Assembly (NCBI RefSeq): GCF_963921235.1
Contig: NC_086108.1
Coordinates: 84,818,001 to 84,882,000 of the forward strand
DNA from: Mobula hypostoma
Taxonomy: Eukaryota
Direction: 5' to 3'
DNA: 64,000 nt
Below are positions 9,121-61,933 of the stretch, in pieces. The translations under genes and the position numbers were made by a program. The notes below the pieces were generated by a model. It was given only the letters and a program-made list of their open reading frames with translations. It was not told the DNA's origin and did not search any database. Positions within the stretch are counted from its first letter, which is position 1; the number at the start of each line of letters is the position of its first letter.

Positions 9121-9545
9121 CTGTGTCCACAAGATGGCAATAAACAAAAAAAAAAAATCAGTAAGCGATTTCTCCTTATTTTACCCATAATATTCCCTCT
9201 GTCTTCCTCAATCAGATGGACTCTCAGGAAAGGGTCAGAATATATGTCCGACTCCCAGAGGTGCTGCCACATTCTCAGTTCTAACTCTCTTGGTTATTCT
9301 GTTATTCTCACTTTAGCATTTCTTTGCACTACTACAGATTATATGACCGGCTTAGCACCATTCCGCTGTTTAGTGCTTGTCACTAAAATTTATTGAAGTG
9401 TTTATTAGTACCATGTACACTGTTTCCTCTGTGAACTTCATGGAAACAAGCAATTTCATTGCACCCTAATAATAAACTAACCTGAATCTGAACTTGTTTG
9501 CCATGAGACATTACAGATACTGCAAAAATAAAAAACCTATAGCTA

Positions 9546-9789
9546 CAAACAAGAGAAAATCTGCAGACACTGGAAATCAAAGCAACACACACAAAATGCT
9601 GGAGGAAGCTGCAGGCCAGGCAGCCATCTATGGAAAAGAGTAAACAGTTGATGTTTCAGGTATAGACTTTTCATCAGAATAGAACTTCATCAGGTTCTGA
9701 TGAAGAGTCTCAGCCCGAAACACCGGCTGTTTATTCTTTTCCATAGATGCTGCTTAGCCTGCTGAGTTCCTCAAGTATTTTGTATGTGT
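9546..9789. mobile_element. Palindromic Penelope-derived short element with two degenerate hammerhead cores in opposite orientation
   Basis: Inverted arms (acaaaatgctggagg...ctatggaaaag / cttttccatagatgctgc...gtattttgt); CTGATGA..GAAA on + at 9697-9720 and on - at 9645-9677. Confidence 0.75.
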
Positions 9790-10300
9790 CGAAAACACTG
9801 TAGCTTGCAGTTACATTCCCATGACATCAAATTTGAATCAAATCCTAACAATCAATACTCTGTATTTTCAGCACTAAACTAGCCATTCAGATAAATCAGA
9901 ACTATTTTGGAAACTCAATTTTCAAAGTGACCACCCTTTGTACTACTTCTTTTCACTTCTTGTCCTGTTATCTAGATAAACCATATTCCAGAAACATTGT
10001 GGCCTTCAAAAGGCTTCAATTCAAAGATTGATACATAAAGACACGTGTGCATATAAGCAAGTCTAAGAACCAGTGAGATAATCATGTCTTTTGTGAAAGA
10101 TTGTGAAGAATCAAAGAATCACATTTGTAAATTAAAAGAGAAATATTTCTAGCAGTTCCCAAGTTGGTGCTTTCACTTAATGTACAGTTTGATCTTATTT
10201 CCAAGTTACTGTTCGTAAGAAATTGTGCTGTAAAGCTAAATAGCCTCAGCATCCACCCTGAAGCCACAGGACTCTTCAAGTAATTGTGATACTATCTCAC

Positions 10301-15068: not shown

Positions 15069-15214
15069 TATGTACACAACTGCCTTGCCCAAGGAAAAAC
15101 AGATAGCTCAATGAAGCATGATCCTAAGAAGTAAAATGTTGTACAGAGATTTATTAACATACTGTACATTAGCATGAAATAATTATGAGGTTCAGTACCA
15201 TTTCCGACACCTCC

Positions 15215-16290
15215 CTTCACTATCTCCATCTCTCTGCCTCGATCTCTGGAGACAGTTTATCTATTGATATCTTTTATAAACCCGCTGATTCTCACAGCTA
15301 CCTGGACTAAACTTCTTCCTACCCTGCCACTTGCCCATCTCCGCCACATCTGTTCTCTGAATGAGGCTTTTTTTCCACAACTAATGAGATGCCCTCCTTC
15401 TCCAAAAAAAGGGACTTTCCTTCCTCCACCACCAATGCTGCCCTCACCTGCACTTCTTCCATTTCGTCCAAGTGACCCTTCTGCACTGATCTCCCTCCTG
15501 GTACTTATCTTTGCAAGCAGAACAAGTGCCGCAGCTGCCCCTGCACCTCCCCTGTCACTACCATTCGGAGCCCCTCACAGTCCTTCCAAGTGAGTCTGTT
15601 GGGGGTTATCTACTGTATCTGGTGCTCCTGGTATGGGCTCCTGCATATCGGCAAGACGCGACGTAGACTGGGAGACCACTTTGCTGAGCACCTACACTCC
15701 ATCTGCCAGAAAAAGTGGGATTTCCCAGTGGCCACCCATTTCAATTCTGTTTCCCATTCCGGCATATTGGTCCATGGCCTCCTCTATTGCCACGATGAGG
15801 CCACACTCAAGCTGGAGGAGCACCTTATTCCATCTGGGTATTTCTCAAACTTCTGGTAACTATCCCCTCCTCTCTTTCACCATTCCCATTTCCCTCTCTC
15901 ACCTTATCTCCTTACCTGCCCATCACCTCCCTCTGATGTTCCTCCCCCTTCCCTTTCTTCCATGGTCTTCTACTCTGTCCTATCAGATTTCCCCTTCCAG
16001 CCCCTTATCTTTTTCACCAAATCAACTTCCCAGGTCTTTACTACGCCCCTCCCCTTTCCTGGTTTCTCTTATCACCTACCACCTTGTACTTATTCCTGCC
16101 CTCCCCCTTGTACTTACTTACCTACTGCCTTGTGTTTCTTCTTCCTCTCCCCCCACCTTCTTACACTGACTTCTCATATATTTTTCCCCAGTCCTGATGA
16201 AGAATCGCGGCCTGAATTATCAACTGTTTACACTTTTCCACAGATGCTGTCTGGCCTGCTGAGTTCCTCCAGCATTTTGGGTGTGTTTCT
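15215..16290 (+). mobile_element. Penelope-like retroelement fragment (RT C-terminus, GIY-YIG endonuclease, pyrimidine-rich tail, degenerate hammerhead)
   Basis: GVIYCIWCS...LHIGKTRRRLGDHFAEHLHSI = GIY-YIG remnant (15590-15859); DIFYKP-DSHSYLD RT-end motif; cagtcctgatgaag near 16188-16202. Confidence 0.85.
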
Positions 16291-17059
16291 CGTGTTCAGC
16301 ACCATTTGTTCAGGTAATAGACTTGCCTTTAAATTCACCTCTTGTGACATACCCACAACTCGACATACCCACAACTCCACTTACCTTTTATGCCTGCATC
16401 CTTCTTCAACATGCACACTTGAGCTAGTTACAGCTTCTATATAGAATCACTGTCTAAATTTTTCACTTTCGACCCACTTTTGCAAACAGGATAATCCAGT
16501 TCAAGAATTTCATTTCAGCAGTACGGGACAATGAAAATATAACAGAAACAAAAGCTATTCTGACCATTAAGTTAGTCACTTAAGCTAAAGACTTATTTCA
16601 CTCTTTAGAAGTTAACAAAATAGTTCTGAGAATGTGCAAAGATAATGCTCCTTGCAAAGGAAGTGGTGAATATGGGTCTAAATAATTATAGGTAGAAGAA
16701 CTCTTGTAAGCACAGCTAATAGATCAGCAGATTTTTAATGATTTTAATTAAGATTAAGAGTTTTGTTGGGAAATAGCATGTTTAATTTCAATCCAAAAAA
16801 GTATTGGGAGTCATCACACTTAGTACAAGGTACACATATGGTCTTAAATAGGTCCATGCTAAAGCAAAGTCCAGGTTATAGGAAATTGAAGATGGATAGC
16901 ATAATTTATTTTGTTACAGAAACACATTGAAAAGGACACAAAATTTGGAGTGAACTAACTTACACTACACAAGGGTTTTCATTTCACGTAACACAAATTA
17001 AGATGACTTCGTTAGGCAGCATCTCAAAATGCTAAAAAAAAACAAGCAATATTAATATT

Positions 17060-18159: not shown

Positions 18160-20215
18160 AAGTTTAAAGTAAATTCATTATATAAGTACATAAATGCCAT
18201 CATTTACAACCCTGAGATTCATTTTCTTGCAGGCATTCACAGTAAATACAAGAAGCACAACAGAATCAATGAAAGACCACATTCAACAGGACAGACAAAC
18301 AACTAGTGCGCAAAAGACAACAGACCGAAAATACAAAAAGAAAGAAAAAAATAAGCAATAAATATTGAGAACATGAGATAAAGAGCCCTTGAAAGTGAGT
18401 CCATAGGTTGAGGGAACAGTTCAGGGGTGGGGCAAGTGACGGTGAGTGAAGTTATCCCCTCTGGTTCAAGAGTCTGATGGCTGAGAGATAACCTGGTGAT
18501 GTGGGTCCTGAGGCTCCTGTACCTTTTGGCCATGTCGCAACCAGTCAACATGCTCTCTTCCACACATCTGTAGAAGTTTGCCAGAGTTTTAGACGACATG
18601 CTAAATGTTTGCAAACTTCTAAGAAATTAGTGACGCCACCATGTTTTCTTTGTAATGGCAATTATATGCTGGATCCAGGACAGATCCTCTGAAATGATAA
18701 CACTGAGGAACAAAGCTGCTGACCCTCTCCACCTCAGATCCTCTGATGAAGACTGGCTCATGGATCTCCAGTTTCCTCCTCCTAAAATCAATAATCACCT
18801 CCTTGCTCTTGCTGACATTGAGTGAGAGGTTGTTGTTGCTGCGGCATCACTCAGCCAGATTTTCAATCTTCCTCCTATATGCTGATTCATCACCATCTTT
18901 GATTCGACAAACGACAGTGGTGTCGTCAGCAAACTTAAAATATGGCATTGGAGCTGTGCTTAGTCTCACAGTCATAAGGAAAAAGTAAGTAGAGCAAGGG
19001 GCTAAGCACACAGCCTTGTGGTGCACCTGCACTGATGAAGATTGTGGAGAGCAACACACATAAAAAATGCTGGTGAACGCAGCAGGCCAGGCAGCATCTA
19101 TAGGAAGAGGTACAGTCACCTTTTCGGGCTGAGACCCTTCGTCAGGACTAGATTGTGGAGAGACATTTTTGCCAATCAAAACTGACTGGGCTCTGCAAGT
19201 AAAGAAATCAAGGATCAAGCTACACCAGAAGATATTGAACCGCAAGTCTTGATTAGTATTGAATGCCAAGCTGCAGACAATGAAGAGCATCCTGATGTAT
19301 GCACCTTCATTGTCCAGATGTTCCAGGGTTGACTGAAGAGAATGAAATGGCATCTGTATGGACTTGTTGTGCCGGAAGGCAAATTGGAGCAGGTACAAGT
19401 CATTTCTCAGGCAGGAGTTGATACGTTTCATCAGCAACCTCTTCAAGCACTTCTTCATAGTGGATGTAATTGCTACTGGACGACAGACAGGTTACGATGT
19501 TCCTCTTTGGAACCTGCTTCAAGCAGGTGGGTGTGTCAGACAGCTGAAGTTAAAGATATCGGTGAATACTCCAGCCAGTTGATCAGGACAGATCTTTAGT
19601 TCTTGGCCAGATACCTCATCTGGGCTGGATGCTTTCCGTGAGTCCACCGTCCTGAAGGAATTTCTCACATTGGCTTCGGAGACTGAAATCACAGACTGGT
19701 GGAATTCCTGGTATGCCTCCATGTTTGGACAGTCAAAGGGAGCATAAAAAGCATTGAGCTCATCTGGGAGTGAAGCCTTGTTGATACCTATATCACTTGG
19801 TTTCACTTTGTAGGAGGTGAAAGCATTCAAGCACTGCCACAGCTGATGAGGATCCCTCAATGATTCAAGTTTTGTCTGGAGTTGCCACTCCACATGTAAA
19901 AAGGCTTTCTGGACATCATACTTGGATCTCATAGTTCATCCAGAGCTATTATTTGGGGAAGACTACATATGATTTTGTGAGGATACACTCATCGACAACT
20001 ATTTTTATTAAGTCCATGAGAATTGTGCTGTATTTGTTCATATCCTCGGATGAGTCCTTGAACATGGCTCAGTCCACCGACTCGAAGCTGTCCCGTGGCT
20101 GCTCCTCTTCCTGCAGCTACCACCTCTTTGTTCTCCTTCTTGCTGGAACCTTGCTCTTTAGCCTCTCTTTGTATGCATATAGGAGGAGGACAGCCAGTGA
20201 TCAAACTTCGGGAGT
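18160..20215 (-). mobile_element. Rex1/Babar-type LINE, degenerate RT
   Basis: ORF remnants LPDELNAFYA, ADQLAGVFTDIFN, LQFAFRHN, KFADDTTVV..IKDGDESAYRRKIENL. Confidence 0.85.
19052..19149 (-). mobile_element. Short Penelope-derived hammerhead-type insertion inside the Rex LINE
   Basis: 13-bp TSD agattgtggagag (19039-19051 and 19150-19162); AGTCCTGACGAAGGGTCTCAGCCCGAAAAGGTGACTG on minus strand. Confidence 0.85.
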
Positions 20216-28201: not shown

Positions 28202-28289
28202 CTAAAGATTTAAAAAAAAGCACAATTATAATAAACTTATGAGTACATTCTTACTTAGCTCACACAATTACCTTTCAAAGGTACCTTTT

Positions 28290-28525
28290 TAGCTAGAGGG
28301 TGGTGAATCTATGGAATTTGTTGCCACGGGCGGCAGTGGAGGCCAAGTCATTGGGTGTATTTAAGGCAGAGGTTGATAGGTATCTGAGTAACCAGGGCAT
28401 CAAAGGTTATGGTGAGAAGGCGGGGGAGCGGGACTAAATGGGAGAATGGATCAGCTCATGATAAAATGGCGGAGCAGGCTCGATGGACCGAATGGCCGAC
28501 TTCTGCTCCTTTGTCTTATGGTCTA
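28290..28525 (+). mobile_element. CR1 LINE 3' end
   Basis: gtggtgaatctatggaat...gaggccaagtcattgggtgtatttaaggcagag...ttctgctcct..tcttatggtct, same as 47880-48113. Confidence 0.8.
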
Positions 28526-35084: not shown

Positions 35085-35772
35085 AAGGATATTGTTCATT
35101 CATATACAATATTTTGAGCAGTTTTGGACCCCTTTTCTATGTTCTGTCATTGGTGAGGGTTCAAAGGAGGTTCACAAAAATGAACCTGACGAAGGGTCTC
35201 GGCCTGAAACGTCGACTGCGCCTCTTCCTATAGATGCTGCTTGGCCTGCTGCGTTCACCAGCAACTTTGATGTATGTTGCTTGAATTTCCAGCATCTGCA
35301 GAATTCCTGTTGTTCACAAAAATGATTCCAGGATTGAAAGGTTTACCATAAGAGGAGCGTTTGACGGCTCTGGGCCTGCATTCACTGGAATTCAGAAGAA
35401 CGAAGGTGAGGTGGGGGAGGGGGATTTTAATTGAAACCTATCGAATGTTGAAAGATCTCGATAGAGTGGACAGGATGTTTCCTATGGTGGCAGAGTCCAA
35501 GAGCAGAGGGCACAGCCTCAGAATAGAGGAAGGATTTCTTTAGTGAGGGAGTGGTGAATCTGTGGAATTCGTTGCCAAAGGCGGCTGTGGAGGCCAAATC
35601 ATTGGGTATATTTAAGCAAAGGTTGATAAGATTCTTGATTAGTCAAGGCACGAAGGGAAATGGGAAGGGCAGACGATTGGGGCTCAGAGGGAAATGGATC
35701 AGTCAAGATGAAATGACGAAGCAGACTCACTGGGACAAATAGCCTAAATCTACACCATTATCTTATGATCTA
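35085..35772 (+). mobile_element. CR1 LINE 3' fragment (host of a hammerhead-type insertion)
   Basis: EQFWTP, ALGLHSLEFRR, LIETYRMLKDLDRVD, VNLWNSLP remnants. Confidence 0.8.
35184..35311 (+). ncRNA. 128-bp Penelope-derived insertion with minimal hammerhead ribozyme core
   Basis: CTGACGA (35186-92), helix II GGGT/GCCT, GAAA (35206-09), C-GTC then GACTG; 14-bp TSD gttcacaaaaatga; activity not shown. Confidence 0.75.
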
Positions 35773-37157
35773 ATATGCTTGTTAGAGCAAAGTTTATCAG
35801 TATTGGAATTAACGCAAGGTGCAAAATTTATATTCAAAGTTAACATCTATCACTAGGACAAGCCACAGCAAGTAAACTGGCAGTCTGCTGTCTGAAAGTC
35901 CATTACTAAATCCTTCCAAGGGGTTATTCCGCTTCTAATAACATCAGACCAACCTAATAATCACAGATTATTTAACTAATGACTTCCTATATCTGTCTGT
36001 TATACAAACACACACTGAATATATGATAAACAATGCATTTCTCAGTAATTAATGGTAGAAAGTTTCTTGTTAAACCATAGTTATACCAAGTTGAATCATT
36101 TTATCTTATCAGACTAACAGATGAAAAACATTTGGTCAGCAATTCAGTGCCTACACAAAAACTAATAAGAAATTATTTGGAAGTGTTGAACTGCTGAATT
36201 AAACTACTAAAAAAAAGCAGAACTGTTTGCCACTATCGTTTGAAGATATTTGATAAAATGCAAATTTTTCAGCCTTTTTCAGAAAAGTAGAAGAGACATC
36301 CATTAACTGCAATATTTAAAAAATGATGAATAGGAGGAAATAATTATATTAAACACCACAATTCCTCACACACTATTCATGTCCCAACACTGGAAAACAG
36401 CAAATATAACTATCACACAAGGAGGAAGGTAGAAACATGAGACTAAAATTTAGTTTGTCTGACATGAAGAAAATGCTAGAATCCATGATTGAGGAAATAG
36501 CAAAAGGAAAATCAATCAAGCAGACTCAACATGACACTTTGAAAGGAAAAACGCCTTTTTTGAGGGTATTACAAGCTAGGCAATTAGAGGGGAACTGACA
36601 GATATAGTATATTTGCCTTTCTAGATGACCATCAGTAAGCTGCTATATAACAGGTTACTGCACAAGGTTGGAGGTCAAGGCATTGGTGGTATTTACATGA
36701 CAAACAGCTAGTATAAATGAGCGAGTTTCAGGTTGTTAAGCAACTTGAGTTGCTGCAGGAATCTGTGCTGTTGTCCCAGTTGATGATAATCTCCACTCAT
36801 GCATAGATGAAGGAATTGAATATGGCGTAGCCAAATTTGCTGATGGTTCAAAGGCGCATGAGAAATAAATTCTAAACATACTTGCTGTATTTTATATTTA
36901 TGAAGAGGCTACCAGGCATTGAAAATATGGTTTTACATACTCTATAAAGAAAAATCTGGACTTGGTGACGGAGAATGCAATTTCTAAGTTTGAGAACAAT
37001 GCAAACTCTTGCATGCTGTGTTGAAAACAAAGTTCCAATTAGATTTGGTAAACAAGCAAGACAGGTTATCTGAAAGTTGCAAGAAATAAAGAATGAAAAA
37101 AGGATACTTAAAAATAGTAAGGAATAGTATGACACCTACCATTACAACCTACTAAAC

Positions 37158-37349
37158 CAGGGGTCAGCAACCTTAAGTACAAATGATTTTCTAGCATGTG
37201 TTATTCACTAATTTGAGGCAAAACATAACTAGGTGTATTTAAATGGATAATTCCCATATTTCAAGTTTTTTAATGGCATTTATCTGGCCCATCGTCCGCT
37301 CATTAATATGCGATCCAGTCCATAGAGGCAAAAAGGTTGCCGACCCCTG
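37158..37349. mobile_element. hAT (Charlie-like) MITE, 192 bp
   Basis: TIR caggggtcagcaacctt / aaggttgccgacccctg; perfect 8-bp TSD tactaaac. Confidence 0.9.
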
Positions 37350-38346
37350 TACTAAACATTACTGAAACCTGGAAGAAGCTGCAGAAAAGTCATACAAAAT
37401 AAACCTTTTCAATGTTTGCTAACACTCCTACCCATGACCATGGGTATCTAACCAAGTACTAAAATTCTCAAAATTGTCTTTTATTGTGTATTCATCAGTT
37501 TTACTTTGATTCCAACTGGTTTCACTTGAAGGTAAAGAAAATAAGGCAACGATAGCTGCTACAAGCAGTAAAATAATTTACCAGTTACATTCTTCAACCC
37601 AGACAGAAAGTCATGATTCAAAAAATACTGATATCTATTACACAAAATACTTTAATAATACTTTAGCAACAATACAAGTCAACAACTTTTAATTGTGTGC
37701 TTGTCTTCACATTTTGTTTTAGTTATTTTACAAAATAAGTTGTATTTCCTACTTTTTTTGGAGGTAGAGAGCAGATCCAAGTATGAATAAGAGTCTCCAA
37801 ATAGTTCATTTTTCAATTCCTGCTCATGGTAAAATTTTACTGTAGACCAATACACACACGTTTTTGTGCTTGATTGTATTTTACTGCTGTCTTATATCTA
37901 CACTATGTGTGCCTTGTGCTGTGGATGACTACTGGAAGTGTGTTTTGCACCTTGGCACCAGAGTAATACTGTTTCATTTGGCTGTATTACTGGATATTCC
38001 TGTATGGATGAATGACAATTCAAACTTGAACTTGAAATTGTGGTGTGTTTCAAACACCATTTAAGGATCAAAAAGAAAAAGATACCTTTAATATTATGAA
38101 TAATCAGAGCACTTATATATTTCCTAAAATAACCATTTTCTGAAAAACACATTTTTCAAACTCAAACCTAACAAGAAAGCAAGTGTAACAAAACATTATT
38201 ATGGTTTCTACTTTTAGACTCCATTTGAGAAAACTAGTCGCATACTCTGCTTCGTTTTTAGCACTTGGTAAATGTACCTTATAGTATAGTTCCTTCCTTC
38301 ATCTCATGATTCAGAATTTCAACTACTGACAAATAACAGCTCTTAC

Positions 38347-38540
38347 CTGTTCCTCTGATAACATCACATCTTTAATTACAGGATGTCCTTGTGGTTCTCC
38401 TTTCTCCATTCGCACGTAAGTTACTTGATATCCACGGATATGTCCATGATGTTTGTTAGTCATTGGTGGCTTCCAGGTGACTTTGATTGCAGTTGAGTTC
38501 ACACACTCTGCTTCCACTTTTCTTGGAGGTGCACTAGGCA
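38347..38540 (-). CDS. PTPRF: PTPRF exon, FN3-5 first part (194 nt)
   Basis: [26 protein letters not shown]...[19 protein letters not shown]...[14 protein letters not shown] acceptor, CAG|GTAAGA donor. Confidence 0.94.
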
Positions 38541-39659
38541 CTACAGTAAAAAATGAAATTATAGTTTTTTTTCAGGAATCATTTCAGAAATCCTAATGCT
38601 CATTCATAATTGACAGTTACCATTTTCTTCTACTCTCCATCACAAAGACATAACCATTTATTATATTTAAGCGAGTCATCTCTTTTGAAAAAAAAACATT
38701 CATTACCTAGGTAATAAACAAAACAGCACTTCAGGTTAGGCTGGAGATTCTGTGCTATGTTTCAAAATCAATTTGAAAAAAAAAATTGACTAGATTTACT
38801 AATTGCCTTCAGAAAATGAAACCTAAAATTCCACAATTTGGGGTTAATTCTACAAAACTTCCAGGAGAAAAAAAGTGATCACCCAGTTCAAATTTTCTGC
38901 GCCTGATGGCTCCATATGGAGAGGAAACAAGTAGGATAACAGAACCAGCTATGAGATTACTCCTAACATTCTGTAAATCTGACGATGAATAGAAATGTTA
39001 TAAATTAATAGATGAATGCATTAAAATGATAACTTGATTTTCATGTGTGTTTAACTGTGATCACAGTGCAGGGAAGGAAAGCAAGATTATTATTTTTAAT
39101 GTTGCAGTTAAGCAATTTCTCTGATTTATGTGCACTTAATGCAGCTTCTGCTGCTTTCTATGATGTACACTTAGGGTAGATTGGAAGATCATTTAACTAA
39201 TGGCTATCATTCTGAATCTAATTGTTGTCCTCACTTGAAATTCACATAGGTCTCCTTTCAACACTTCTCACTGCTAAGTGGATTTGTGGTCTATTTTTTT
39301 TCTTCTGGAGCCTAAGAACCTCTACAGCCAACGAGCGCACCTGCGTCATTGCAACACGCACAGGGAAGGTATGATTCAGCAATGATTAATTGAGATTGAC
39401 ATATCATCTTATAGTAATTTTAAAGGAATTCCTGTATATGACATAATTTCTCCTTGCAGACATAATACAATTAGCATTAATTTCCAAGTCAATCGTGGCT
39501 CAACAAGGAAAAGATCTGAAGCATTTTCTATTTAGCACAAGACCAATATATTCTGAAGCATTCCACTTGTGCAAAGAGTCTTCTGTACATCAGGTTTCAC
39601 AAAGACCATCCCTCCTTAGAAAAGAAGATTGCTTGCCCTATAGAAAATGCAACTGAGCG

Positions 39660-41220
39660 ATTAATAATGAAAAACATGCTAGCAGATGAATTGAAGAAAT
39701 ACTTTCATAAGGCTATACAAGAGAACAATAGTAAAAACCCCGAAATAAGTTATAAATTGAGAATTGGAAAGGAGGGAGGAAATCAGGAAAATAAAATCAC
39801 AGTTGAAGCACTACTGAACACATGGTTGGAGTTGAAAGTTGACACGTCTCTGGACTTCACCTCAGTTTTAAAAAGAGCATCTAGTGAAACAGTTGATGCA
39901 TTGGTTTTAATTTTCCAAAATTTCCTGAATTTGGAGAGATTGGAAAGTGGCAAATTTAACTCATTTATTCAAAAATAGGAGGGAAACAGAAATCAGAAAA
40001 CATCTGTGATATAAAATATTGAAACAGACATTGTAACAGATGTTAAAACAAAATTTAGGCAAAGTTAGTGTGGTTTTATACAAGAGAAATCATGCTTACC
40101 AATTTATAAAGAAATGTAATATGTTTTGGATAAAGGGGAACCAGTGGACACACTATACTTAAATTTCTAAAAAGCTGATTTAAAGATTATTGTTGAAAAT
40201 AGCTTGAGCTGTAGGAGGCAACATTTTGCCATACATAGAAGATTGGATAGGTAACAGGAAAAATAGAGGAAGCATAAATGAGTATTTAGTTGGCAGGATA
40301 GGGTGTGCATAGGAACTGGTGCAGGGTCCTCAAATTTATAATTTATATAAATGACGTAAGTGAGTGACAATATCATTAAAAATGTTGCTAATGACAAAAA
40401 GAAAGCAGTTTTGAACTTTGAAGGACATTACAAAGCTACAAAGAGATAGATAGGTTTGATGAGTGAACACTTCCAACAAAGATCTGGCAAACAAAGCTTA
40501 ATGGGTGGGAAAATGTGAAGTTGTCCATTTAGCAGAAAAGTAAATAAAACAAAGCGTACCTTCTGTAAAGAGACATATTGTAGAAATCTAAGCTGTGGAG
40601 TAAACTTGATATATTAGTGTATGAAATGTGTCAGCAGGTATCAACTGTTTTTTTAGAAACTAACAGAATGGCATTGTTTATTGAAAGGGGAACTGAATAT
40701 AAAAAATAGGAGTTTATATTTCAGTTATTTCCAATTGATGAGACCACATTTGAAGTGTCATGCACAGTACTGGTCTCCTAACACAAGGAAAGTTGTTAAT
40801 ATATTGGACACATTCAGAAGTAGTTAACTAGACCCGTACATAGAATTGCTGCTTTGTCCTATGTGGAAAATTGAATGGTCAAACATATGAATGAAAGACC
40901 TTGTAGAGACTTGACAGCATGGATACGGAGAGGATGTTTTTCTTATGGGAGAATGTAAAACCAAAGTCACTTTTTAAAAAAAATAGGGATACCTATTTAA
41001 TAAAGAAAAGAGGCAAAAGTTCTTCTTTTATGGGTTTTGGAAGGGTGGTGGAATCATTTTATATAGGATAGATTCTTCAAGTAGGGAAGTGAAAGGTAAA
41101 TGGGAAGGGAGAAAGTGAATTTGAGGTTACATTCAGAACAGCCATTTTATTAAAATGGTGGAGAAAACTTGAAGGGTCCAGCCACCTAATTCTGCTGCTA
41201 ATTCACATCCTCATATCTGG
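39660..41220 (+). mobile_element. Old, highly decayed CR1 LINE
   Basis: ETVDALVLIFQNFL remnant; gaccacatttgaagtgtcatgcacagtactggtctcc motif. Confidence 0.6.
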
Positions 41221-41394
41221 ATCAACAATTGATTAGCCGATGCTTTCTAACTGGATGCATATGAATCACAATGACCAATATCAGCATAAATGAGCGTGTC
41301 TACTGTGATTAAAAACCATCTGCTATACACTAAAAAAGCCTCTTTCAAATGCCTCTCTCCCAGACATCCTCTTCCTTTCAATATGCAGATCTCA

Positions 41395-41572
41395 AGAAAG
41401 ATGCTTTCAAGAAAGAGTTAGATAGAGCTCTTAAAGATAGTGGAGTCAAGGGATATGGGGAGAAGGCAGGAACGGGGTACTGATTGTGGATGGTCAGCCA
41501 TGATCACAGTGAATAGCGGTGCTGGCTCGAAGGGCCGAATGACCTACTCCTGCACCTATTGTCTATTGTCAA
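41395..41572 (+). mobile_element. CR1 LINE 3' end
   Basis: gggatatggggagaaggcagga...gggccgaatgacctactcctgcacctattgtctattgtc. Confidence 0.75.
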
Positions 41573-43329
41573 TTATCCCACTAATTTAATTCTAAATACC
41601 ATTTCTTTTGTCAAAATTATACTCTTGGGAAGAGAAGGAGAAGGGAACTTTTAATATATCTATCTACATTCACTCAGCTTACTAAAATGGCATGATAATT
41701 AACAAATAGTTCCTAGGTTTATTCATGGAATTTAGTACATTGTTTTGAGGGAAAGGTTAAATTAATCTTGAGTAGATTAGTAAAACAGCACAACATCATC
41801 AGCCAAAGGGCCTGTTCTGTGCTGTAGTGCTCTATGTTCAATAAAATTGTTCTCCAATTGACTTTGAGTATTGAATATTTTCTAAATTATCATGTGGCAA
41901 CCACAGCAGGTTACTTTGAGAAATAGAGTTCACTATAATTATAGATCAAAAAGTTAGTCTTCAGGCAGCAACAGTACTGGCTATTGGGATTTAAACTACC
42001 CATTCAATTTACAGAATTATTGAAAGTTGAAAATAGTATTAGAAAACAAAATTTAAAAAATACAATTTCAGCCTCTTTCACTGTCTTCCCTTTCATGTGA
42101 AACAAAAGCAGGTTTGAACTTAAAATGACCTGCAGCCTTGTATGTGGGCATGTGACTTGAAGTGTACACACAACTTGTTAATAGAAGCTAAGAAACTGAT
42201 CATAAGAGGTAGGGTAGAAAATCATTAAAGTTGAAAAAGTAGCAGTAAAATAAATTTCAAACATTTGTAAGAATACATTGAGAGATTTTGGTTACAGTTT
42301 CAAGGGTTTTCCTGTTTACTTTCTATCTATTCCATTCCAGGTTCTCAACCACTGATTGTATTTTAGTAAACTGCTGATTTCCTAGCTTGAGTCTGCAGCC
42401 GAGAGTTCCGTACTGAAGACTATTTCTCCAGTAACTCACAATGAGCTCAATATATCTCCAATTTTCTACAGGAGCTGTTACTTCTGTACTTCAGATATCT
42501 GGACTTCAACTTGGCCCTCCATCAGGTTTATCATTCTCTGCTTATTCCTATCCTGGTATTGATTTTGCATAACTGTTCTCAAGACCTTAGGCTCTTCATT
42601 CATCCACTGCTTCCTGATGTCTCTGATTTCACTCATTCTCCAATGGAAAACATTTGGAATTTCCATTTTCTACAGAAGTGTTACCTTAACTCCCTCAAAA
42701 AGCTACTGGGCTCACTTGTCTGTCTGTAACTAACATAAACTCTGGACATCAGTTTATCAGTACACCAGGGAAGCCAATTTTCAAACAAGGTTCTTACCAT
42801 TGACACCCAACCTAAAATACAGCTTATAACTTGAACCAGAGTACAATTTGCTCCCCTACCCCCACCTGGTCTTTTGGAATTTCAATTTTAGAACTGAACA
42901 TTCTTTGGGTTGAAAATACATTTAGATTTCCCTATACAAACTTTGGGTTAATAGAGGAAAAAATTAATTTAACCTTTGAAGTTTTATTTTATGCTATAAA
43001 CAGTGTATATTTTCACTCATCTGTACCAGCCCCTTCCAAAAATATTCCACATGTAGACTGAAACATCAGGTTTTACTGTAATTACAAATGACTGCATTGC
43101 AATATTGATGGCATTATACCCTTAAAGTAAACTTGGCTTAATGATGATGACAACACCAGCCACACTCCCCAACCCCAACCCTTCCAAAGCTTGCTGTTGA
43201 ATCCTCAATACCTACTATGGTGGCATGAAACACTTTTCACACCATCCCATTTTGGCCTATCTTCCTATCATTCCTGCATTTGTATTCTGTTCCTTTCATT
43301 TCCTGTTATACACACTTGCTCCACTCCTC

Positions 43330-43880
43330 CCACATCAATGTTCAAGTCTTCAGTCTGTCTCACCAACTCCACCAGCAGCATCTGAAGAAATTCTCTGATG
43401 ACTCAGCAATAGTTGGGTACAATCTTCTATGCTGTGCTGTGTTGGGGCAATGGCATCAATATGGGTGATGCCAAAACCTCAATAACCTGATTAGAAGGCC
43501 TGGCTCTGTTACAGGAGTCAAACTGAACACACTAGAGGCTGTGGTAGAACAAAGGACCCTACAGAAACTCCTGGCAATTCTGGACAATATTTCTCACCCT
43601 CTGCAAGCCACCTTGGCTGAACAGAGGAGCACTTTCAGTAATAAACAAAGACAACTGCACTGCTCCAATGAGTGCTATATGATGTCATTCTTAGCCTTGG
43701 CCATGAGGATCTATAATGAGTCAACCTATAGCTGGGGAAGTGATGACCCCTCTCTTGTTAGACTGTTTGAAGTAACTTATTTTTTATTCTTTCTTACTTC
43801 TCTTCTAATATTTGTGTATCAGTGCACTTGTAATGCTACTGTGAAACTAACTTCCTTTGGGATCAATAATCTATCTATTT
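43330..43880 (+). mobile_element. LINE 3' fragment (Rex-like) with (ATCT)n tail
   Basis: HLKKFSDDSAIVG RT motif; LLAILDNISHPL C-terminal motif; tail tttgggatcaataatctatcta. Confidence 0.7.
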
Positions 43881-45059
43881 AAGTATCCTTATTGCTGGTC
43901 ATGCACACTGCACCAAGTGATTTCTCATCACTGGAGATTTCAATCTTCATCTCAACTCACTTTTCTCTCGTTCCTCTTTTAGCACTTTGCTTCTTTGTCA
44001 CAATTTGCTATTCACAAAACCTCGCATGTCATAGGATATTGGATATGTCCACAAGTCTGAGGTGTGGAAATGCTGAGAACACACTGACAAAGAAACCAGA
44101 ATAAATATTGCAGATGACTGCAAGATACAGCTTTTAGTGCCACTTTTTAGATTCTTTATTCCCTGGTGCTTCATAAGTGCAAAAGACAGGTGTAGTTATA
44201 AAATAATACAACAAAATTCCACATGACATAAATCAGGGAGGTGTTTCTCAAATATATGGCCATAGAGAAATTGCAATCTCTATAAAGTCCGGATTGAACT
44301 TGGGTCACTGGAGCTGTGAAACAGCAGCACTTTGTGAGGTAAACTTCATTCAGACAAATAAAAGATAAAAGATCTATATAGTGATTCACTATTTTAAGAC
44401 AGACTGAAGATAATTGGGGCAATTCTCCTGTTATCAAAGCCCAATGATTAGACTGTTATGAACTGAGATTGACTTTATGCACTATTCATGACTCTTTTTA
44501 AAAAAAAAGCAAGTTACCTTTATTAAAGGAAGCTACTTGTGTTTCTCCTAGTCTTTAAACAGATATTTACTAATTGAAGTAATTATGCATAGGGCAATTG
44601 CTGTGAGCCTAGACATATAGTCTGCTCCATCTTAATGGATGTCACAGTGTTATTAATCGATAATTCATACACAAATATTTCTTGAATAATTGAACTGTAC
44701 AATTTCTTTTGGAGTACCTCTTTGCTAATAGATTTGTTAATATTTACAGAAAATAATTTGGAATAAATCTTGCGTATCAACATTTATTGTGGACTGCTGT
44801 TACTCTTGTTTTTAGCTTCATGAAAAAAAGGCACACATCATCTTATTTCTCAAGAACAGCCTGAATACAACATCAATCCATTTTGACTGTGAAGTTTTAT
44901 ACATTTAAATTAAAATGCACAATTACAGAAATTATCCCAATTTCTATCTAAATTTCCCTTTCTTCATTAAATGCTGTGTGGGCTTAACTATCTTTGAAAA
45001 TTTGGTGAAAGATGTACTACAATGTTAAATATATTTACATTTATTTTTGAACAACCTAC

Positions 45060-45365
45060 CATCCTCTTCTGTGCGGATAATCACAGGTGTACTCTTCGGA
45101 CCTGGACCAACGTTCGTATGAGCCATAACCCACACCTGATATTCGGTCCACTTCTCCAGACCCTCAACTAGCGAGCTGGTTGCGTCTGCCTCAATGTTGT
45201 CCAAAACATGCTTCTTGTTGTCCTCACTATCCACAGCCTGATATATAATGGAGTATTTGGTAATGACTCCATTACGACTGTTTGCTGGTGGTGGACGCCA
45301 ACTTACCCGAATGCTGGAGGAGCTGATTGCAACACCGTGAACATCTTGAGGTGGGGCAGAGGGGG
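45060..45365 (-). CDS. PTPRF: PTPRF exon, FN3-4 (306 nt)
   Basis: TPSAPPQDV...IRVSWRPPPANSRNGVITKYS...GLEKWTEYQVWVMAHTNVGPGP...RTEED; CACTAG acceptor, ATG|GTAGGT donor. Confidence 0.94.
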
Positions 45366-46419
45366 CTAGTGAATAAATGGAGGGGGTGAAAAGTAATAAA
45401 TAAAATAAAATGGTAAAAGACTAAACAGAAAATGTATACTAAAATTAAAAATACATGCAGAGAACAAGCAAATTAACATCAAAGCTCTTTTCAAACAGAT
45501 ATGAATATTCTATTTGCATTCAATCATGCAAAAATATGGTAAAACAACAGAATGGTGGGGTAAATAATACAGAAAATAAATATTGGACAATCATGCAAGT
45601 ACCTATCTGAAAGTGTACAAAATGTACTTTAAATTACATTGTTACAACTAAAATAGCAGCATTTGATACACTTACTGAAAAGATCTTGTACTGTCTGCAT
45701 GTGTACAACACTAACAGATAAGCATCTCCAATGTGACATCCTGGCTAGTGAATAGTAGGACAATTTTAAAGTGGATCCATATAGGAGGCATCATGCTGCA
45801 GCTAAGCTTGCATATTTAGAGCTATCACATACCCATGTATGAGCAGAGCATGTGAGAAATACAAGTTATTCCACTGAATCGGTAAACTATTAATACTTAA
45901 AAAGCGAAAAACAGTCGCTAGAAATTTAAGACTTTTCCTGCTGTGTGTGAGTTGAAAGGAAAACTTGCAGATTGTGGTATTATCATGTGACTGGTGGCCT
46001 TGTCATTTCAGACAATACAGCTTGCTTGATTGAGAGGTTCAGCCAGAGAAACTTTGCTGGTATTGTAATATAGGTTGCAGTAGGCAATGAACACAGCCAC
46101 AGCACAAGACCACATGAATAATGTGTTGCATCTATCCATGAATTACAAACAACCTCAGCAGCAGTAAAACTCCAACTCTCTCTGGATGCAACCTTATGAA
46201 GGATGGGCTGATTTTCTATTAGCTAATGTTACAATGATCTACAACAACAGGTGCTCAACACACCAGCTTAGCTCTCAAAACATCTTCTTTTAGTCTGTCA
46301 GTTAAAACTCATCCTTTTAGTTAAGATTTACTCTTCCCTTCCAGATATTTGGCTTGTTCCTGGTTTCATTATTTATTGAAACAAGCGCAATCAATTATTG
46401 CAAATGCTCCTAGTTCTTT

Positions 46420-48113
46420 AAGCCCAAATGTACAGTAACTAAAGGAAAAGAAATTTTTTCCCATGAGAATCCAAAACAGGAGAGAGAGATCCAGAATTAC
46501 CCAGTTTTGGCAAAATTGCTGGACTAACTGGAAAAAAAGAAAAGGGGATGATGTAGCATTATACAAATGTCACTCCACTCTTCAAGAGGGAGAGAAGCAG
46601 AATAATGGAAATTATAGATAGACCAGTTAGTCTGACCTCCGGTTGGGAAGATCATTAGAGTCAATTGTTAAGGATGTAGTTTTAGGATACTTGGCAGCAC
46701 ATGATAAAATAGGCTGTAGTCAGCATGGTTTCCTCAAGGGAAAATCTTGCCTGACAGATCTGTTGGAATTCTTTGAAGAAGTAACAAGCAGGATAGACAA
46801 AGGAGAATTGGTTGATATTGTGTACTTGGTTTTTAAAAAGCCTTTGACAAGGTGCCACACATGAGGCTGCAGAACAAGCTACAAGCCAATGGCATTACAG
46901 GAACAATTCTAGCATGGGTAAAGCAGTGGCTGATTGGAAGGAGGCAAAGAGTGGAAATAAATGGAGCCATTTTTCTGGTTGGCTGCTGTTGACTAGCAGT
47001 ATTCCACAGGGGGTCTGCGTTGGGACCAATTCTTTTGATGTTATATGTTAATGATTTGGATGATTGACTTGATAGCTTTGTTGCAAAGTTTGCAGACGAT
47101 ATGAAGATAAGTGGAGGGGCAGGTAGTTTTGAGGAAGTAGAGAGACTACAGAAGGACAGAGACAGATTAGGAGAATGGGCAAAGAAGTGGCAGGTGGAAT
47201 ACAGTGCCAGGAAGTGTACGGTCATGGACTTGGGGAGAAAAATGAAAGGGCCGATCATTTTCTAAATGGAAAGAACATACACAAAATCTGAGGCACAAAG
47301 GGATTTGGGAGTCTTTCTGTCAGGTTGAGGCTATGGTGAGGAAGGCAAATGTGATGTTAGCATTCATTTCTTGAGGACTAGAATATAAACGCAATGATGT
47401 AACGGAAAGCACTGGTGAGGCCTCACTTGGAGTACTGCGTAAAGTTTTGGCCCCCTTATGTTAGAATGGATGTGCTAAAACTGGTGAAGGTTCAAAAGAA
47501 GTTCATAAAAATGTCCTGACGAAGGGTCTCGGCCTGAAACGTCGACTGCACCTCTTCCTACAGATGCTGCTTGGCCTGCTGCATTCACCAGCAACTTTGA
47601 TGTATGTTGCTTGAATTTCCAGCATCTGCAGAATTCCTGTTGTTTTCATAAAAATTAAACGGCTTGTCATGTGAAGAGCGTTTGATGGCTCTGGGCCTGT
47701 ATTCACTGGAATTTAGAAGAATGAAGGGTGACCTAATTGCAACCTATTGAGTGGCGAAAAACCTTAGTAGAGTGGATGTGGAGAGGATGTTTCTTATGAT
47801 GGGAGTGTTTAAGACCAGATGACACATCCTCAAAATAGAGGGGTGTCCTTTTAGAATGGAGATGAGGAGAATTTGTTCAGCCAGAAAGTGGTGAATCTGT
47901 GGAATCCATTGCCACAGGCAGCTGTGGAGGCCAAGTCTTAATGTATATTTAAGGCAGAGGTTGATAGATTCTTGATTGGTCAGGGAATGAAGACATAGAG
48001 GCTAAAGACAGGAAACTGGGGATGAGGGGGAAAATGACTCAGCCATGATGAAATGGCAGAGTAGACTCAAGGGGTCAAGATGGCCGAATTCTGCTCCTAT
48101 ATCTTATGGTCTT
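46420..48113 (+). mobile_element. CR1 LINE, degenerate ORF2 RT to 3' end (host of a hammerhead-type insertion)
   Basis: SQHGFLKGKSCLTDLLEFFEEVTSRIDKG..VDIVYL; KFADD; CR1 3' tail. Confidence 0.88.
47513..47644 (+). ncRNA. 132-bp Penelope-derived insertion with minimal hammerhead ribozyme core
   Basis: GTC-CTGACGA (47516-22)...GAAA (47536-39) C GTC GAC; TSD ttcataaaaat (47502-12, 47645-55); 3 substitutions versus the 35184 copy over the shared body. Confidence 0.75.
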
Positions 48114-48454
48114 ATACTTTTATTCCACAATTCTATTAAACTCATGTTTACATGCTATCATATCAAATTTTCAGGTCAATGATCTTGAGGTTAAGAATTA
48201 TATAAATTAATTTTTATATGATAACAGGGGAACATGAGTTTAATAGATTTGCAGAATAAAAGCAGATATTGACTATGATCATAATATCTAATTGATATAA
48301 AAAAATTGTTTGAGATTTGCAAGAGGTGGAAGGATAGTATAGGGTGATGACAATATGGAATTGAGTTACAATCGGATCAATCATGACTAAATGACTTCCT
48401 AATTTGCACATTTGTATGTCCATTTCCGATCAATATTGGATCACTGGACGATGA

Positions 48455-50085
48455 TGCTAGTGAGATAGTAACTGGGGGACAAAGAAATGGCAGATGAACT
48501 TAATAAGTACTTTGCATCAGTCTTCACTGTGGAAGACACTAGCAGTGTGCCAGAAGTCTATGAGTGTCAGGGAGCAGAAGAGAGTGCCATTGCTATTACA
48601 AAGGAAAAAGTGCTAGGCAAACTCAGAAGGTCTTAAGGTGGATAAGTCACCTGGACCAGATGGACTACATGCCAGAATCCTGAGAGAGGATGCTGAAGAG
48701 ATAACAGATGAATTGGTCATGATCTTTCAAGAATCACTTGACTCTGGCATGGTCCCGGAGGACTCAAAAATTTCAGATGTCACTTCACTCTAAGGAAGGA
48801 AGGAATGCAAAAGAAAAGAGATTATAAGCCAGTTAGCCTAACCTTATAGGTTGGGAAAATGATGGAGTCTAATATTAAGGATGAGGTTTCAGGGTACTCA
48901 GGGTACTTGGAGACTATTGATAAAATTAGTCGTCAGTATTGTTTCTGTAAAGGGAACTCTTGCCTGATGAATCTGTTAAATTCTTCGAGGAAGTAACAAG
49001 CAGGGTAGACAAAGGAGAGGCAGTGGATGTCATTTACTTGGATTTTCAGGGGCGTTTGATAAGGTGCCATCATGAGGCTGCTTAACAAGATAAAATCCTA
49101 TCGCATTACAGGAAAGATACTGGCATAGATAAAGGAATGGCTGACAGGCAGGATTTAGATAATGGATTTGATGGCTTTTTGGCAAAGTTTGCACATGATA
49201 GAAAGATAGGTGGGAGGGGTAGGTGGTGCTGAGGAAGCAATGTGATTGCAGCAGGACTTAAATTGGAAGAATGGGTGAAAAAGTGACAAATGGAATACAG
49301 TGTTGGGAAATGTGTGATCATGTATTTTGGTAAAGTGTAGACTATTATCTAAATGGGGAGAAAATTCACACATCAGAGTTGCAGAAGGACTCCTCATGCT
49401 AGACTCTCAAAAGGTTAATTTAGTGGTTGAACCTATGGTAAAGAAGGTAAATGCAATGTTGTTATTTATTTTAAGGGGAATAGAATACAAAAGCAAGGAG
49501 ATAATGCTGAGCCTTTATAAGACACGAGTCAGGCCACACTTGGAGTATTGTCAACAGTTTTGGGCCCCATATCTCAGAAAAGACGTGTTGTCATTGGAGA
49601 GAGTCCAGAGGAGGTTTGCAAGAATGATTCCAGGAATGAAGGGATTAACATATGAGGAGCGTTTGGCCTGTACCCACTGGAATTTAGAAGAATGCGTGGG
49701 GATCTCAACGAAACCCACCGAGTGTTGAAAGAAGTAGATAATGTGGATGTGGAGAGGATGTTTCCCATGGTGGATGTATTTAGAACTGGAGGGCACAGCT
49801 TCAAAATTGAGGGGCTATTTTTAGAACAGAGGTAAAGAGGAATTTTTTTTTTTAGCCAAAGAGTAGTGAATTTGTGGAATGCTCTGCCACAGACTGTGGT
49901 GGAGGCCAAGTCCATGGGTGTATTTAAAGCAGAGGTTAATAGTTTCCCGATTGGTCAGGCCATCAAAGGATATGGCGAGAAGGCAGGTGTATGGGGTTGA
50001 TTGGGATCTGGAGTCAGCCATGATGGAATGGCGGAACAGTCTTGATGGGTTGAATGGCCTAAATCTGTACCTATGTCTTATGGAA
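48455..50085 (+). mobile_element. CR1 LINE, degenerate ORF2
   Basis: LYKTRVRPHLEYCQQFWAPYLRKDVLSLERVQRRFARMIPGMKGLTYEERL. Confidence 0.88.
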
Positions 50086-53966: not shown

Positions 53967-54100
53967 CTCTTTGCCATCAACCTCCTCAGAATACACCAGT
54001 TCATATTTGAGTATTTTCTCTTGTTGACGCAACATCCAGGAGAGCACAATGCTGGTATCAGACTCTGCCTCAGCTTGGAACTCAGCAGGCTGAGCAGGAA
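53967..54100 (-). CDS. PTPRF: PTPRF exon, FN3-3 first half (134 nt)
   Basis: VPAQPAEFQAEAESDTSIVLSW...YELVYSEEVDGKE; CTACAG acceptor, GAG|GTATGA donor. Confidence 0.93.
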
Positions 54101-61901: not shown

Positions 61902-61933
61902 CCTGCTGAGTTCCTCCAGCATTTTGTGTGTGT
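61902..61933 (+). mobile_element. 32-bp 3' remnant of the Penelope-derived short element
   Basis: cctgctgagttcctccagcattttgtgtgtgt matches ~16255-16287; flanked by 7-bp direct repeat taactgg. Confidence 0.6.

What the first reader, a model, noticed from the sequence alone, without database searches (positions are those of the whole stretch)
35170..47655. Hammerhead-type mini-retroposon at the same site in two different CR1 copies: possible target-specific parasite of a LINE
Seen: near-identical ~130-bp inserts at 35184-35311 and 47513-47644 (3 substitutions in the shared body) interrupt two clearly more diverged CR1 copies at the same homologous position, the VQRRFTKM codons (gttcaaaggaggttcacaaaaatg vs gttcaaaagaagttcataaaaatg). 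Each TSD copies its own host variant on both sides (ttcaCaaaaat twice; ttcaTaaaaat twice), and the 5' junctions differ. CR1 copies at ~3601-3630 and ~49600-49630 have the empty site, reading agaatg instead of aaaatg. Inference: two independent insertions after the hosts diverged, implying a sequence preference, perhaps aided by GTT microhomology between the (TGT)n tail and the target. Only two events support this, and a third family member (19052) uses an unrelated target.
Basis: partly seen in the sequence, partly recalled or inferred. Interest (0 to 1): 0.72.

Follow-up and report, generated by a model that had tools for sequence, protein, structure and literature searches.

The report
Penelope stubs hit a CR1 hotspot
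Two near-identical 130-base inserts sit at the same spot in two old copies of a common repeat in ray-like fish DNA; they are cut-short ends of a very abundant Penelope-type jumping gene that hits this spot far more often than chance, likely because its cutting enzyme favours a loose DNA pattern, while nearly all its copies lie elsewhere, so it is not a dedicated parasite of that repeat.

Summary
Observation confirmed, interpretation half right. Inserts A (35184-35314) and B (47514-47645) agree at 126 of 129 bases. Their CR1 hosts are only 74% alike. Each insert duplicates its own host's target (14 and 11 bp), and both junctions differ, so they inserted separately.

They are not a separate mini-element. 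The same end, with hammerhead motif, caps a 1.1-kb copy (15204-16293) that encodes a Neptune-type Penelope GIY-YIG endonuclease; A and B add the known 30-40-base tail.

Contigs of public runs show a real hotspot: about 14-27 locus-equivalents carry this tail-CR1 junction, 0.2-2% of similar CR1 sites, roughly 30-4,600 times the uniform expectation. That is only about 0.006-0.1% of the family's tail ends (hosts like A only). The other four family insertions in the window are not at this site. One of them, outside CR1, matches the hotspot at 17 of 30 bases (0.05% of window positions do), which favours a loose sequence preference over CR1 targeting.

Limits: no control CR1 position was laid, depth-based counts are rough, and no genome was held. 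The scan reported such hotspots before on other DNA (e1-8158725, e1-9119650 and others).

The parts
35184..35314 (+). Insert A: terminal repeat (pLTR) plus tail of a Penelope-like element; one extra or variant base at 35184; last 3 bases shared with the right TSD copy
35170..35183 (+). TSD of A, left copy (14 bp), in CR1 ORF2 codons RFTKM
35312..35325 (+). TSD of A, right copy (14 bp, exact)
35186..35218 (+). Minimal type I hammerhead motif of A: core 35186-35192, bulged A 35193, stem II 35194-35205 (G-U at its base), GAAA 35206-35209, predicted cut after 35213; 5' arm of stem I cut to 1 pair
   Evidence: read from sequence against the description in PMC4209133; pattern scan; not an Rfam match; monomer fold no better than shuffles
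35281..35314 (+). Optional 3' tail (about 34 bases here), present in A, B and one arm of D, absent in C, E, F and the other arm of D
   Evidence: definition in PMC8557442 and PMC11167929
35105..35775 (+). Host A: decayed 3' piece of a CR1-type LINE (limits approximate)
47514..47645 (+). Insert B: pLTR plus tail, 126 of 129 bases identical to A; hammerhead core from 47516, stem I keeps 3 pairs
47502..47512 (+). TSD of B, left copy (11 bp matched; likely 12 with 47513)
47645..47655 (+). TSD of B, right copy, followed by a host deletion of about 10 bases
46631..48116 (+). Host B: decayed CR1-type LINE with RT remnant (left limit is a minimum)
3614..3627 (+). Empty homologous site in CR1 copy E1 (26 of 30 bases as in A's site)
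49614..49627 (+). Empty homologous site in CR1 copy E2 (26 of 30 bases as in A's site)
19052..19149 (-). Copy C: tail-less pLTR stub, 13-bp TSD (19039-19051, 19150-19162), in a different RT-coding repeat
9545..9790 (.). Copy D: head-to-head pLTR pair, tail on the minus arm only; likely decayed 14-bp TSD (9531-9544, 9792-9805; 3 mismatches)
15204..16293 (+). Copy E: 5'-truncated Penelope-like element, decayed ORF end with CX4CxxC linker and GIY-YIG endonuclease (15485-15829), then pLTR with hammerhead remnant from about 16191
15190..15203 (+). TSD of E, left copy (right copy 16294-16307, 1 mismatch); site matches A's at 17 of 30 bases in register and shows no similarity to the window's CR1 copies beyond that
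61902..61933 (+). Copy F: about 32-base pLTR scrap between 7-base direct repeats (61895-61901, 61934-61940), read by eye

Best explanation
The two inserts are separately landed stubs of a very abundant Penelope-like retrotransposon (its terminal repeat with a hammerhead motif plus its short tail), and this CR1 position is an insertion hotspot, likely because the element's endonuclease favours a loose DNA pattern that these CR1 codons happen to spell. Steps. (1) Shown: the same end belongs to a longer copy with a Neptune-type GIY-YIG endonuclease. (2) Inferred from the TSDs and from PMC11167929: the element's protein nicks both strands about 12-14 bases apart and primes reverse transcription on the nick. 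(3) Inferred: copying starts inside the RNA at one of two sites, giving copies with the tail (A, B) or without (C, E, F). (4) Inferred: when it starts at the first repeat of the transcript it runs off the RNA's 5' end after about 100-130 bases, just in front of the hammerhead, which would explain why 5 of 6 arms that reach the hammerhead stop there. (5) Shown roughly: the CR1 site is hit tens to thousands of times more than an average base but takes a tiny share of insertions. (6) Inferred: the preference lies in the sequence around the nick, not in CR1 as such; 1-3 bases of microhomology may set the exact start.
For: Identity: E's pLTR aligns to A, B, C, D, F at 73-97%. E's ORF end is 66% identical to a batoid protein with a GIY-YIG hit and has the CX2-5CxxC linker and two cysteines between GIY and YIG that PMC8557442 gives for Neptune/Nematis. 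Tail on one arm of an inverted pair (D) is the described pattern. Independence: host-specific base in both TSD copies, different 5' and 3' junctions, hosts 74% against inserts 98%, no segmental duplication. All 3 differences between A and B are common variants of the family (table 3). Hotspot: depth over tail positions joined to CR1 is 193 (X1), 131-142 (X6), 0 (X10), against 7-14 and 5-13 for the 8 listed single contigs per run. A class of pieces ending at 35334-35337 appears only in X1 and X6, in matching amount, so much of the junction class likely runs 20 or more bases into CR1. Not dedicated: 0.006-0.09% of tail depth; diverse flanks; 4 of 6 window insertions elsewhere. Motif: site E matches site A at 17 of 30, reached by 0.052% of window positions (0.006 after 12 comparisons).
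Against: No control CR1 position was laid, so enrichment rests on a computed uniform expectation with wide limits (30-4,600 fold). Contig depth is not a copy number, run X1 may be the window's own sample, and A itself is one of the loci counted. I cannot show that the roughly 20 junction loci are independent events rather than later duplicates, and a few may be chance look-alike flanks. Sites C and D do not resemble A (11 and 7 of 30; 14% and 70% of positions do as well). The A-E match was noticed after the fact and E is an older subfamily. Mirror symmetry reported by earlier notes is not significant in my 4 sites (12 of 32, expected 8.5, P 0.11). Two of 4 sites filled in one window is unlikely even at 2% per site (P 0.002), which needs reader selection, uncounted junction types or local clustering. 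PMC11167929 found initiation without homology to the cut DNA and only an AT-rich preference, in a different clade. The Pfam GIY-YIG hit of E itself is weak (E 0.16).
Confidence: 0.72

Rival explanations
1. A CR1-targeting element: a subfamily (or its short derivative) has evolved specificity for this CR1 position as a safe harbour, like target-specific LINEs that insert into other transposons.
For: 2 of 4 homologous sites filled in the window, same orientation, nicks within 1 base. About 14-27 and 10-30 locus-equivalents in two organisms. Only hosts close to A were counted, so the true share is higher than measured.
Against: Share of tail depth 0.006-0.09%. Loose-end consensus of 316, 306 and 45 contigs behind the tail shows no CR1 letters, agreement 0.42-0.43. 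C, the closest relative in the window (88%), sits in another repeat. E matches the motif outside CR1.
Confidence: 0.07
2. Microhomology or repair bias, not endonuclease preference: nicks are nearly random in AT-rich DNA, and sites whose first bases pair with the GT-rich RNA end are completed more often.
For: 3' junctions of A, B, C and F share 3, 1, 2 and 1 bases with the element end (read by eye). A and E both start their TSD with the same three bases as the element's end. D. virilis and anole elements are reported as AT-rich cutters.
Against: Three shared bases can give at most some tens-fold enrichment, the low end of the estimate. The A-E match extends into both flanks (4 of 8 and 5 of 8 bases), outside any pairing. 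B uses the site with 1 shared base. PAc initiates without homology in vitro.
Confidence: 0.13
3. One insertion copied to other CR1 copies by gene conversion, duplication or retrotransposition of a composite CR1.
For: A and B are 12.3 kb apart, same strand, 98% identical. The independence of the other junction loci in the runs is untested.
Against: Both TSD copies follow each host's own variant, both junctions differ, host flanks next to the insert are no more alike than other CR1 pairs, and there is no duplication outside CR1. The hosts are old and broken while the inserts carry variants that are common only in organism A (19% and 33% of depth in X1, 1-3% in X6 and X10).
Confidence: 0.05
4. 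A self-propagating SINE-like element mobilised by a LINE (CR1 or L2) through a 3' stem-loop.
For: Many copies start at the same base (625 loose ends before 35185 in X1). The tail gives a weak match to the UnaL2 3' element model (15.9 bits, E 2.9).
Against: That score is far below the family cut-off of 55. The same end is continuous with a Penelope ORF in E. Tail-less and head-to-head copies follow the Penelope pattern. No microsatellite tail shared with the window's CR1 ends.
Confidence: 0.03

Closest known systems
Neptune/Nematis-type endonuclease-bearing Penelope-like elements (Craig et al. 2021, PMC8557442; keyword passages read)
   Same: C-terminal GIY-YIG endonuclease with CX2-5CxxC linker, pLTR with hammerhead motif, inverted 5'-truncated arm, 30-40-base tail on one end.
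   Different: The passages read give microsatellite or rDNA bias for Naiad and Chlamys but no target motif or CR1 hotspot for Neptune. The RT core needed to separate Neptune from Nematis is not in the window.
PAc, Poseidon element of the green anole (Frangieh et al. 2024, PMC11167929; parts 1-2 of 4 read)
   Same: Two internal start sites of reverse transcription that define the optional tail; cuts and extends both strands; hammerhead not needed for insertion in vitro.
   Different: Other clade (no linker motif). Preference reported only as AT-rich/ATT and initiation without homology; here a wider motif and 1-3 shared bases are suggested.
Minimal hammerheads of metazoan PLEs (Cervera and De la Pena 2014, PMC4209133; parts 1-2 of 4 read)
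   Same: Core, extra base before stem II, palindromic minimal helix III, short helix I; mostly single motifs from truncated elements.
   Different: A and B have G-U instead of the conserved G-C at the base of stem II and a clipped stem I. Cartilaginous fish are not named in the parts read.
Penelope insertions of Adineta vaga (Arkhipova et al. 2013, PMC3846280; keyword passages read)
   Same: TSDs, inverted pLTRs, optional tail, insertions into other retroelements, microhomology at a 5' junction.
   Different: TSDs of 8-10 bp there, mostly 12-14 here; no recurrent site in a LINE in the passages read.
Non-LTR retrozymes (Li et al. 2026, 10.64898/2026.07.22.740005; part 1 of 5 read)
   Same: Non-coding, hammerhead-bearing, derived from PLE pLTRs.
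   Different: Defined as tandem repeats with two or more complete motifs; A and B are single units with TSDs and no tandem array.
Target-specific non-LTR retrotransposons that insert into repeats, including transposons (introduction of PMC4640811, passages read; Tx1L/Tx2L of Xenopus recalled, not from a call)
   Same: Repeated use of one position in a multicopy target.
   Different: Those use AP-type or restriction-like endonucleases and live mostly in their target; here the enzyme is GIY-YIG and well under 1% of measured ends lie at the site.

Membership tests
EN+ Penelope-like elements | GIY-YIG endonuclease with two cysteines between GIY and YIG (CCHH) | tested here: met
   In family copy E, not in A or B: motif read; Pfam E 0.16 for E itself, 0.0005 and 0.002 for 2 of 3 homologues, 66% identity
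EN+ Penelope-like elements | pLTR with minimal hammerhead motif | tested here: met
   Motif at the start of A, B and, altered, C, D, E; downstream of the ORF in E
EN+ Penelope-like elements | Optional 30-40-base tail, inverted 5'-truncated arm, TSD | tested here: met
   Tail in A, B, one arm of D; TSDs in A, B, C, E, likely D and F
EN+ Penelope-like elements | Telomerase-like RT core | not tested
   E is truncated after the core; 15197-15466 matches the part of P0001 and P0003 in front of the endonuclease at 52-53%, but neither shows a Pfam RT hit
Neptune/Nematis clades | CX2-5CxxC linker between RT and endonuclease | tested here: met
   CX4CxxC in E and in P0001; definition
Neptune/Nematis clades | RT phylogeny placing it in Neptune rather than Nematis | not tested
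   No RT core of the family in the window
Target-specific retrotransposon | Most copies in one position of one target repeat | tested here: not met
   2 of 6 in the window; 0.006-0.09% of tail depth for hosts like A
Target-specific retrotransposon | Site used far above chance | tested here: met
   About 30-4,600 fold over a computed uniform rate, no control position laid
Non-LTR retrozyme | Tandem units each with a complete hammerhead | tested here: not met
   No tandem array at A or B; single motifs with clipped stem I
Non-LTR retrozyme | Self-cleavage and circular RNA | not testable with these tools
   Only contigs were available
SINE | Separate subfamily that propagates from short copies, with a LINE-derived 3' end | tested here: inconclusive
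   End is continuous with a Penelope ORF; UnaL2 match far below cut-off; subfamily trees of short against long copies not possible without the genome
CR1 LINE (host) | AP endonuclease plus RT ORF2 related to known CR1 | tested here: inconclusive
   E2's ORF piece matches sawfish and bird RT proteins, 2 of 12 with AP-endonuclease domains; RT remnant in host B. The label CR1 rests on recalled knowledge (bird LINEs of this type, the RPHLEYC motif); no source named it

The most novel reading that the evidence does not exclude
Neptune-type Penelope elements of rays have a hidden, roughly 30-base degenerate target code read by a paired GIY-YIG endonuclease, strong enough to make one CR1 ORF2 position a hundred- to thousand-fold hotspot that has been reused across species and element subfamilies. 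The boldest form not excluded: the youngest subfamily (A and B) is drifting towards CR1 as a safe harbour, an early stage in the evolution of target specificity.
Probability: 0.3. Interest if true: 0.62.

Novelty: new variant of a known kind. Interest (0 to 1): 0.38.

Why it matters
How Penelope-like elements choose and cut their targets is barely known: one full protein has been studied in vitro (PMC11167929), with only an AT-rich preference. A natural hotspot with many filled and empty alleles gives a ready substrate for mapping the endonuclease's preference, the offset between its two nicks and the role of microhomology. It also warns that shared insertions at this CR1 position are not safe markers of common descent. 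The inserts themselves are ordinary debris.

Tried and rejected
Whole-genome collection of copies: no genome held. Rfam: 0 matches at gathering scores in 64 kb; 3 sub-threshold matches around A, none a hammerhead. Tandem array at the inserts: none among 4 rows. Single-strand folds of 5 hammerhead regions and the 3' end: none better than shuffles, z -0.8 to +0.65; no support for a stable monomer fold. Pattern scan of metagenome contigs: 0 matches. Earlier findings by sequence: none. No RNA holder on record; run X5 is only guessed to be RNA, so nothing is said about expression. Presence or absence of A and B in organism B: not resolved, no listed piece spans the locus. Mirror symmetry of targets: not significant over 30 bases or flanks only. 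The CTG...CAG word pair of e1-9967807: A and E have CAG at +4 to +6 on the right but no CTG on the left. ESM Atlas for the CR1 piece: unnamed clusters only. Segmental duplication: rejected. Literature searches for a described PLE target motif or CR1 hotspot: (0 papers; 8; 9; 2 listed; 16 listed), judged from listings only; none showed one. The library lacks most subscription journals, Repbase and Dfam were not available, and no supplements were read, so absence from print is not established.


Full report
Verdict. The inserts are real and independent, and the site is a real hotspot. They are stubs of an abundant Penelope-like element (PLE), not a CR1-specific parasite.

1. Observation. A spans 35184-35314 and B 47514-47645. 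The shared body agrees at 126 of 129 bases. A has an exact 14-bp TSD; B shows 11 bp, its right copy shortened by a host deletion. Both TSD copies of each insert carry the host's own base. The 5' junctions differ, and so do the 3' junctions: 3 bases shared between element and target in A, 1 in B. The hosts align at 73.9% over 700 columns including the insert, and 12 kb around A against 12 kb around B shows only CR1 matches and one 77-base match. Of 4 CR1 copies covering this position, 2 are filled. The host ORF piece matches bird and sawfish RT proteins; the name CR1 is from recalled knowledge.

2. What the insert is. BLAST of A finds further family members at 19050-19146, 9549-9677, 9697-9769, 16193-16274 and 61899-61934, plus three hits too weak to use. 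The copy ending at 16293 continues 1 kb upstream into a decayed ORF. That piece is 66% identical to a batoid protein with a GIY-YIG hit and carries a CX4CxxC linker and two cysteines between GIY and YIG. PMC8557442 gives that linker for the Neptune and Nematis clades and not for Poseidon (passages). This copy (E, 15204-16293) has its own 14-bp TSD with 1 mismatch. So the 130-base insert is the terminal repeat of a PLE. The last 34 or so bases of A and B are missing from C, E, F and one arm of the head-to-head pair D, matching the optional 30-40-base tail. The best protein relatives are from rays, so the window is likely from a ray-like fish.

3. The hammerhead. A and B carry the minimal type I motif described for metazoan PLEs (read by eye and by pattern). 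Rfam does not score it. Stem I is clipped at the 5' junction (1 pair in A, 3 in B) and stem II starts with G-U. Such motifs are reported to need a dimer, and cleavage was not needed for insertion of the anole element in vitro. I infer that these copies are inactive passengers. Five of 6 arms that reach the motif start within a few bases of its front edge, and 625 contigs of X1 have loose ends there.

4. Is the site targeted? No genome was held, so I laid contigs of public runs. (35110-35390, 85%, 4 runs): summed depth is 3-10 million over the insert body in X1 against 0.1-0.27 million over the adjacent CR1. Behind the tail, 316 (X1), 306 (X6) and 45 (X5) loose ends give a T-rich consensus with agreement 0.42-0.43 and no CR1 letters. 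X1 was saturated, so its counts are incomplete. One search (35298-35357, 80%, 3 runs) held only 17 bases of tail, too few to be laid alone, so depth there marks tail-CR1 junctions. It is 193 in X1, 131-142 in X6 and 0 in X10, against 101,895, 73,540 and 107,734 over CR1. The 8 listed single contigs per run have depths of 7-14 (X1) and 5-13 (X6), giving about 14-27 and 10-30 locus-equivalents. Extra pieces ending at 35334-35337 occur in X1 and X6 but not X10, so much of this class likely extends 20 or more bases into CR1 (inference from the depth table). The filled share of CR1 sites like A is 0.19% raw and about 1.8% after allowing for overlapping short contigs. The share of the family's tail depth is 0.006% raw and about 0.09% corrected. 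Against a uniform rate of 4e-6 to 6e-5 per base and strand (my assumption: 20,000-340,000 tail ends in 2.65 Gb) the enrichment is about 30-4,600 fold. These are rough: depth is not copy number, only one junction type and hosts close to A were counted, A is among them, and no other CR1 position was laid as control.

5. Why this site? Site E shows no similarity to the window's CR1 copies over 150 bases on each side, yet matches A's pre-insertion site at 17 of 30 bases in register. Only 0.052% of window positions do as well, 0.006 after 12 comparisons. Sites C and D do not match (11 and 7 of 30). Mirror symmetry is not significant in my 4 sites, although several earlier notes report it from larger sets. 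The match was seen after the fact, so a loose motif is the likely cause, not a shown one.

6. Age. The variants at 35274 (A and B) and 35220 (A) make up 19% and 33% of depth in X1 but 1-3% in X6 and X10. A and B therefore likely belong to a branch that expanded in organism A's own lineage, long after the hosts decayed. X6 has a similar number of junctions, so the site was likely hit at more than one time.

7. Mechanism. Shown: identity of the element, TSDs, two kinds of 3' end, recurrence at the site, diverse flanks. Inferred: two nicks 12-14 bases apart by the GIY-YIG domain; target-primed reverse transcription from one of two internal sites; run-off at an RNA 5' end in front of the hammerhead; a degenerate target preference that CR1 codons satisfy. 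Unexplained: 2 of 4 sites filled within 12 kb (P 0.002 at 2% per site). Reader selection among many windows, uncounted junction types or local clustering could each explain it.

8. Comparison and novelty. It works like, and by the tested features belongs to, the endonuclease-bearing PLEs of Neptune/Nematis type. It fails the test for a target-specific element and for a retrozyme. Short stubs, tails, inverted arms and TSDs are in print. A PLE hotspot in CR1 or a wide target motif did not appear in my searches (listings only). The scan's earlier notes report the same kind of hotspot in this genome and in others; they are leads, not evidence, and I took the Neptune label and the hotspot wording from them before checking both here. 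Interest 0.38.

Noticed in passing
table 5c, joint 35314 to 35214: Contigs of X1 (depth 49) join the tail end plus four bases to 35214, the first base after the predicted hammerhead cut. If same-strand, this would be a tandem unit starting at a self-cleaved RNA end; the table does not give the strand.
   Followed up: no
table 5c, joints 35217-35272 to 35184-35186: Several joints return to the hammerhead's front edge from positions at or after the 3' arm of stem I (depths 21-210). They may be head-to-head junctions using the two arms of stem I as microhomology, or tandem units.
   Followed up: no
table 5, joint 35218 to 35323: One contig of X6 joins the hammerhead region to the CR1 site on opposite strands: possibly an insertion in reverse orientation at the same site.
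   Followed up: no
window 9678-9693: Between the two arms of copy D lies a short extra piece that repeats the start of the hammerhead core on the minus strand, suggesting a second template switch at the junction.
   Followed up: partly
window 35259-35312: The tail region can be drawn as a stem-loop weakly like the UnaL2 LINE 3' element (15.9 bits, cut-off 55); the anole element also starts reverse transcription at a stem-loop.
   Followed up: partly
window 18760-19460, minus strand: Host of copy C is a decayed RT-coding repeat of a different LINE type (Pfam RVT_1, E 0.004).
   Followed up: partly
window about 14600-15070: Sequence in front of copy E looks like the 3' end of a Tc1/mariner-type DNA transposon (judged from recalled motifs); its last bases recur inverted near 12944-12963.
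   Followed up: no
window 28288-28452 and 515-584: Further short CR1 3' fragments that do not reach the hotspot position.
   Followed up: partly
window 54078-54110: Weak 33-base match to the pLTR (E 0.075), possibly a very old scrap; not counted.
   Followed up: no
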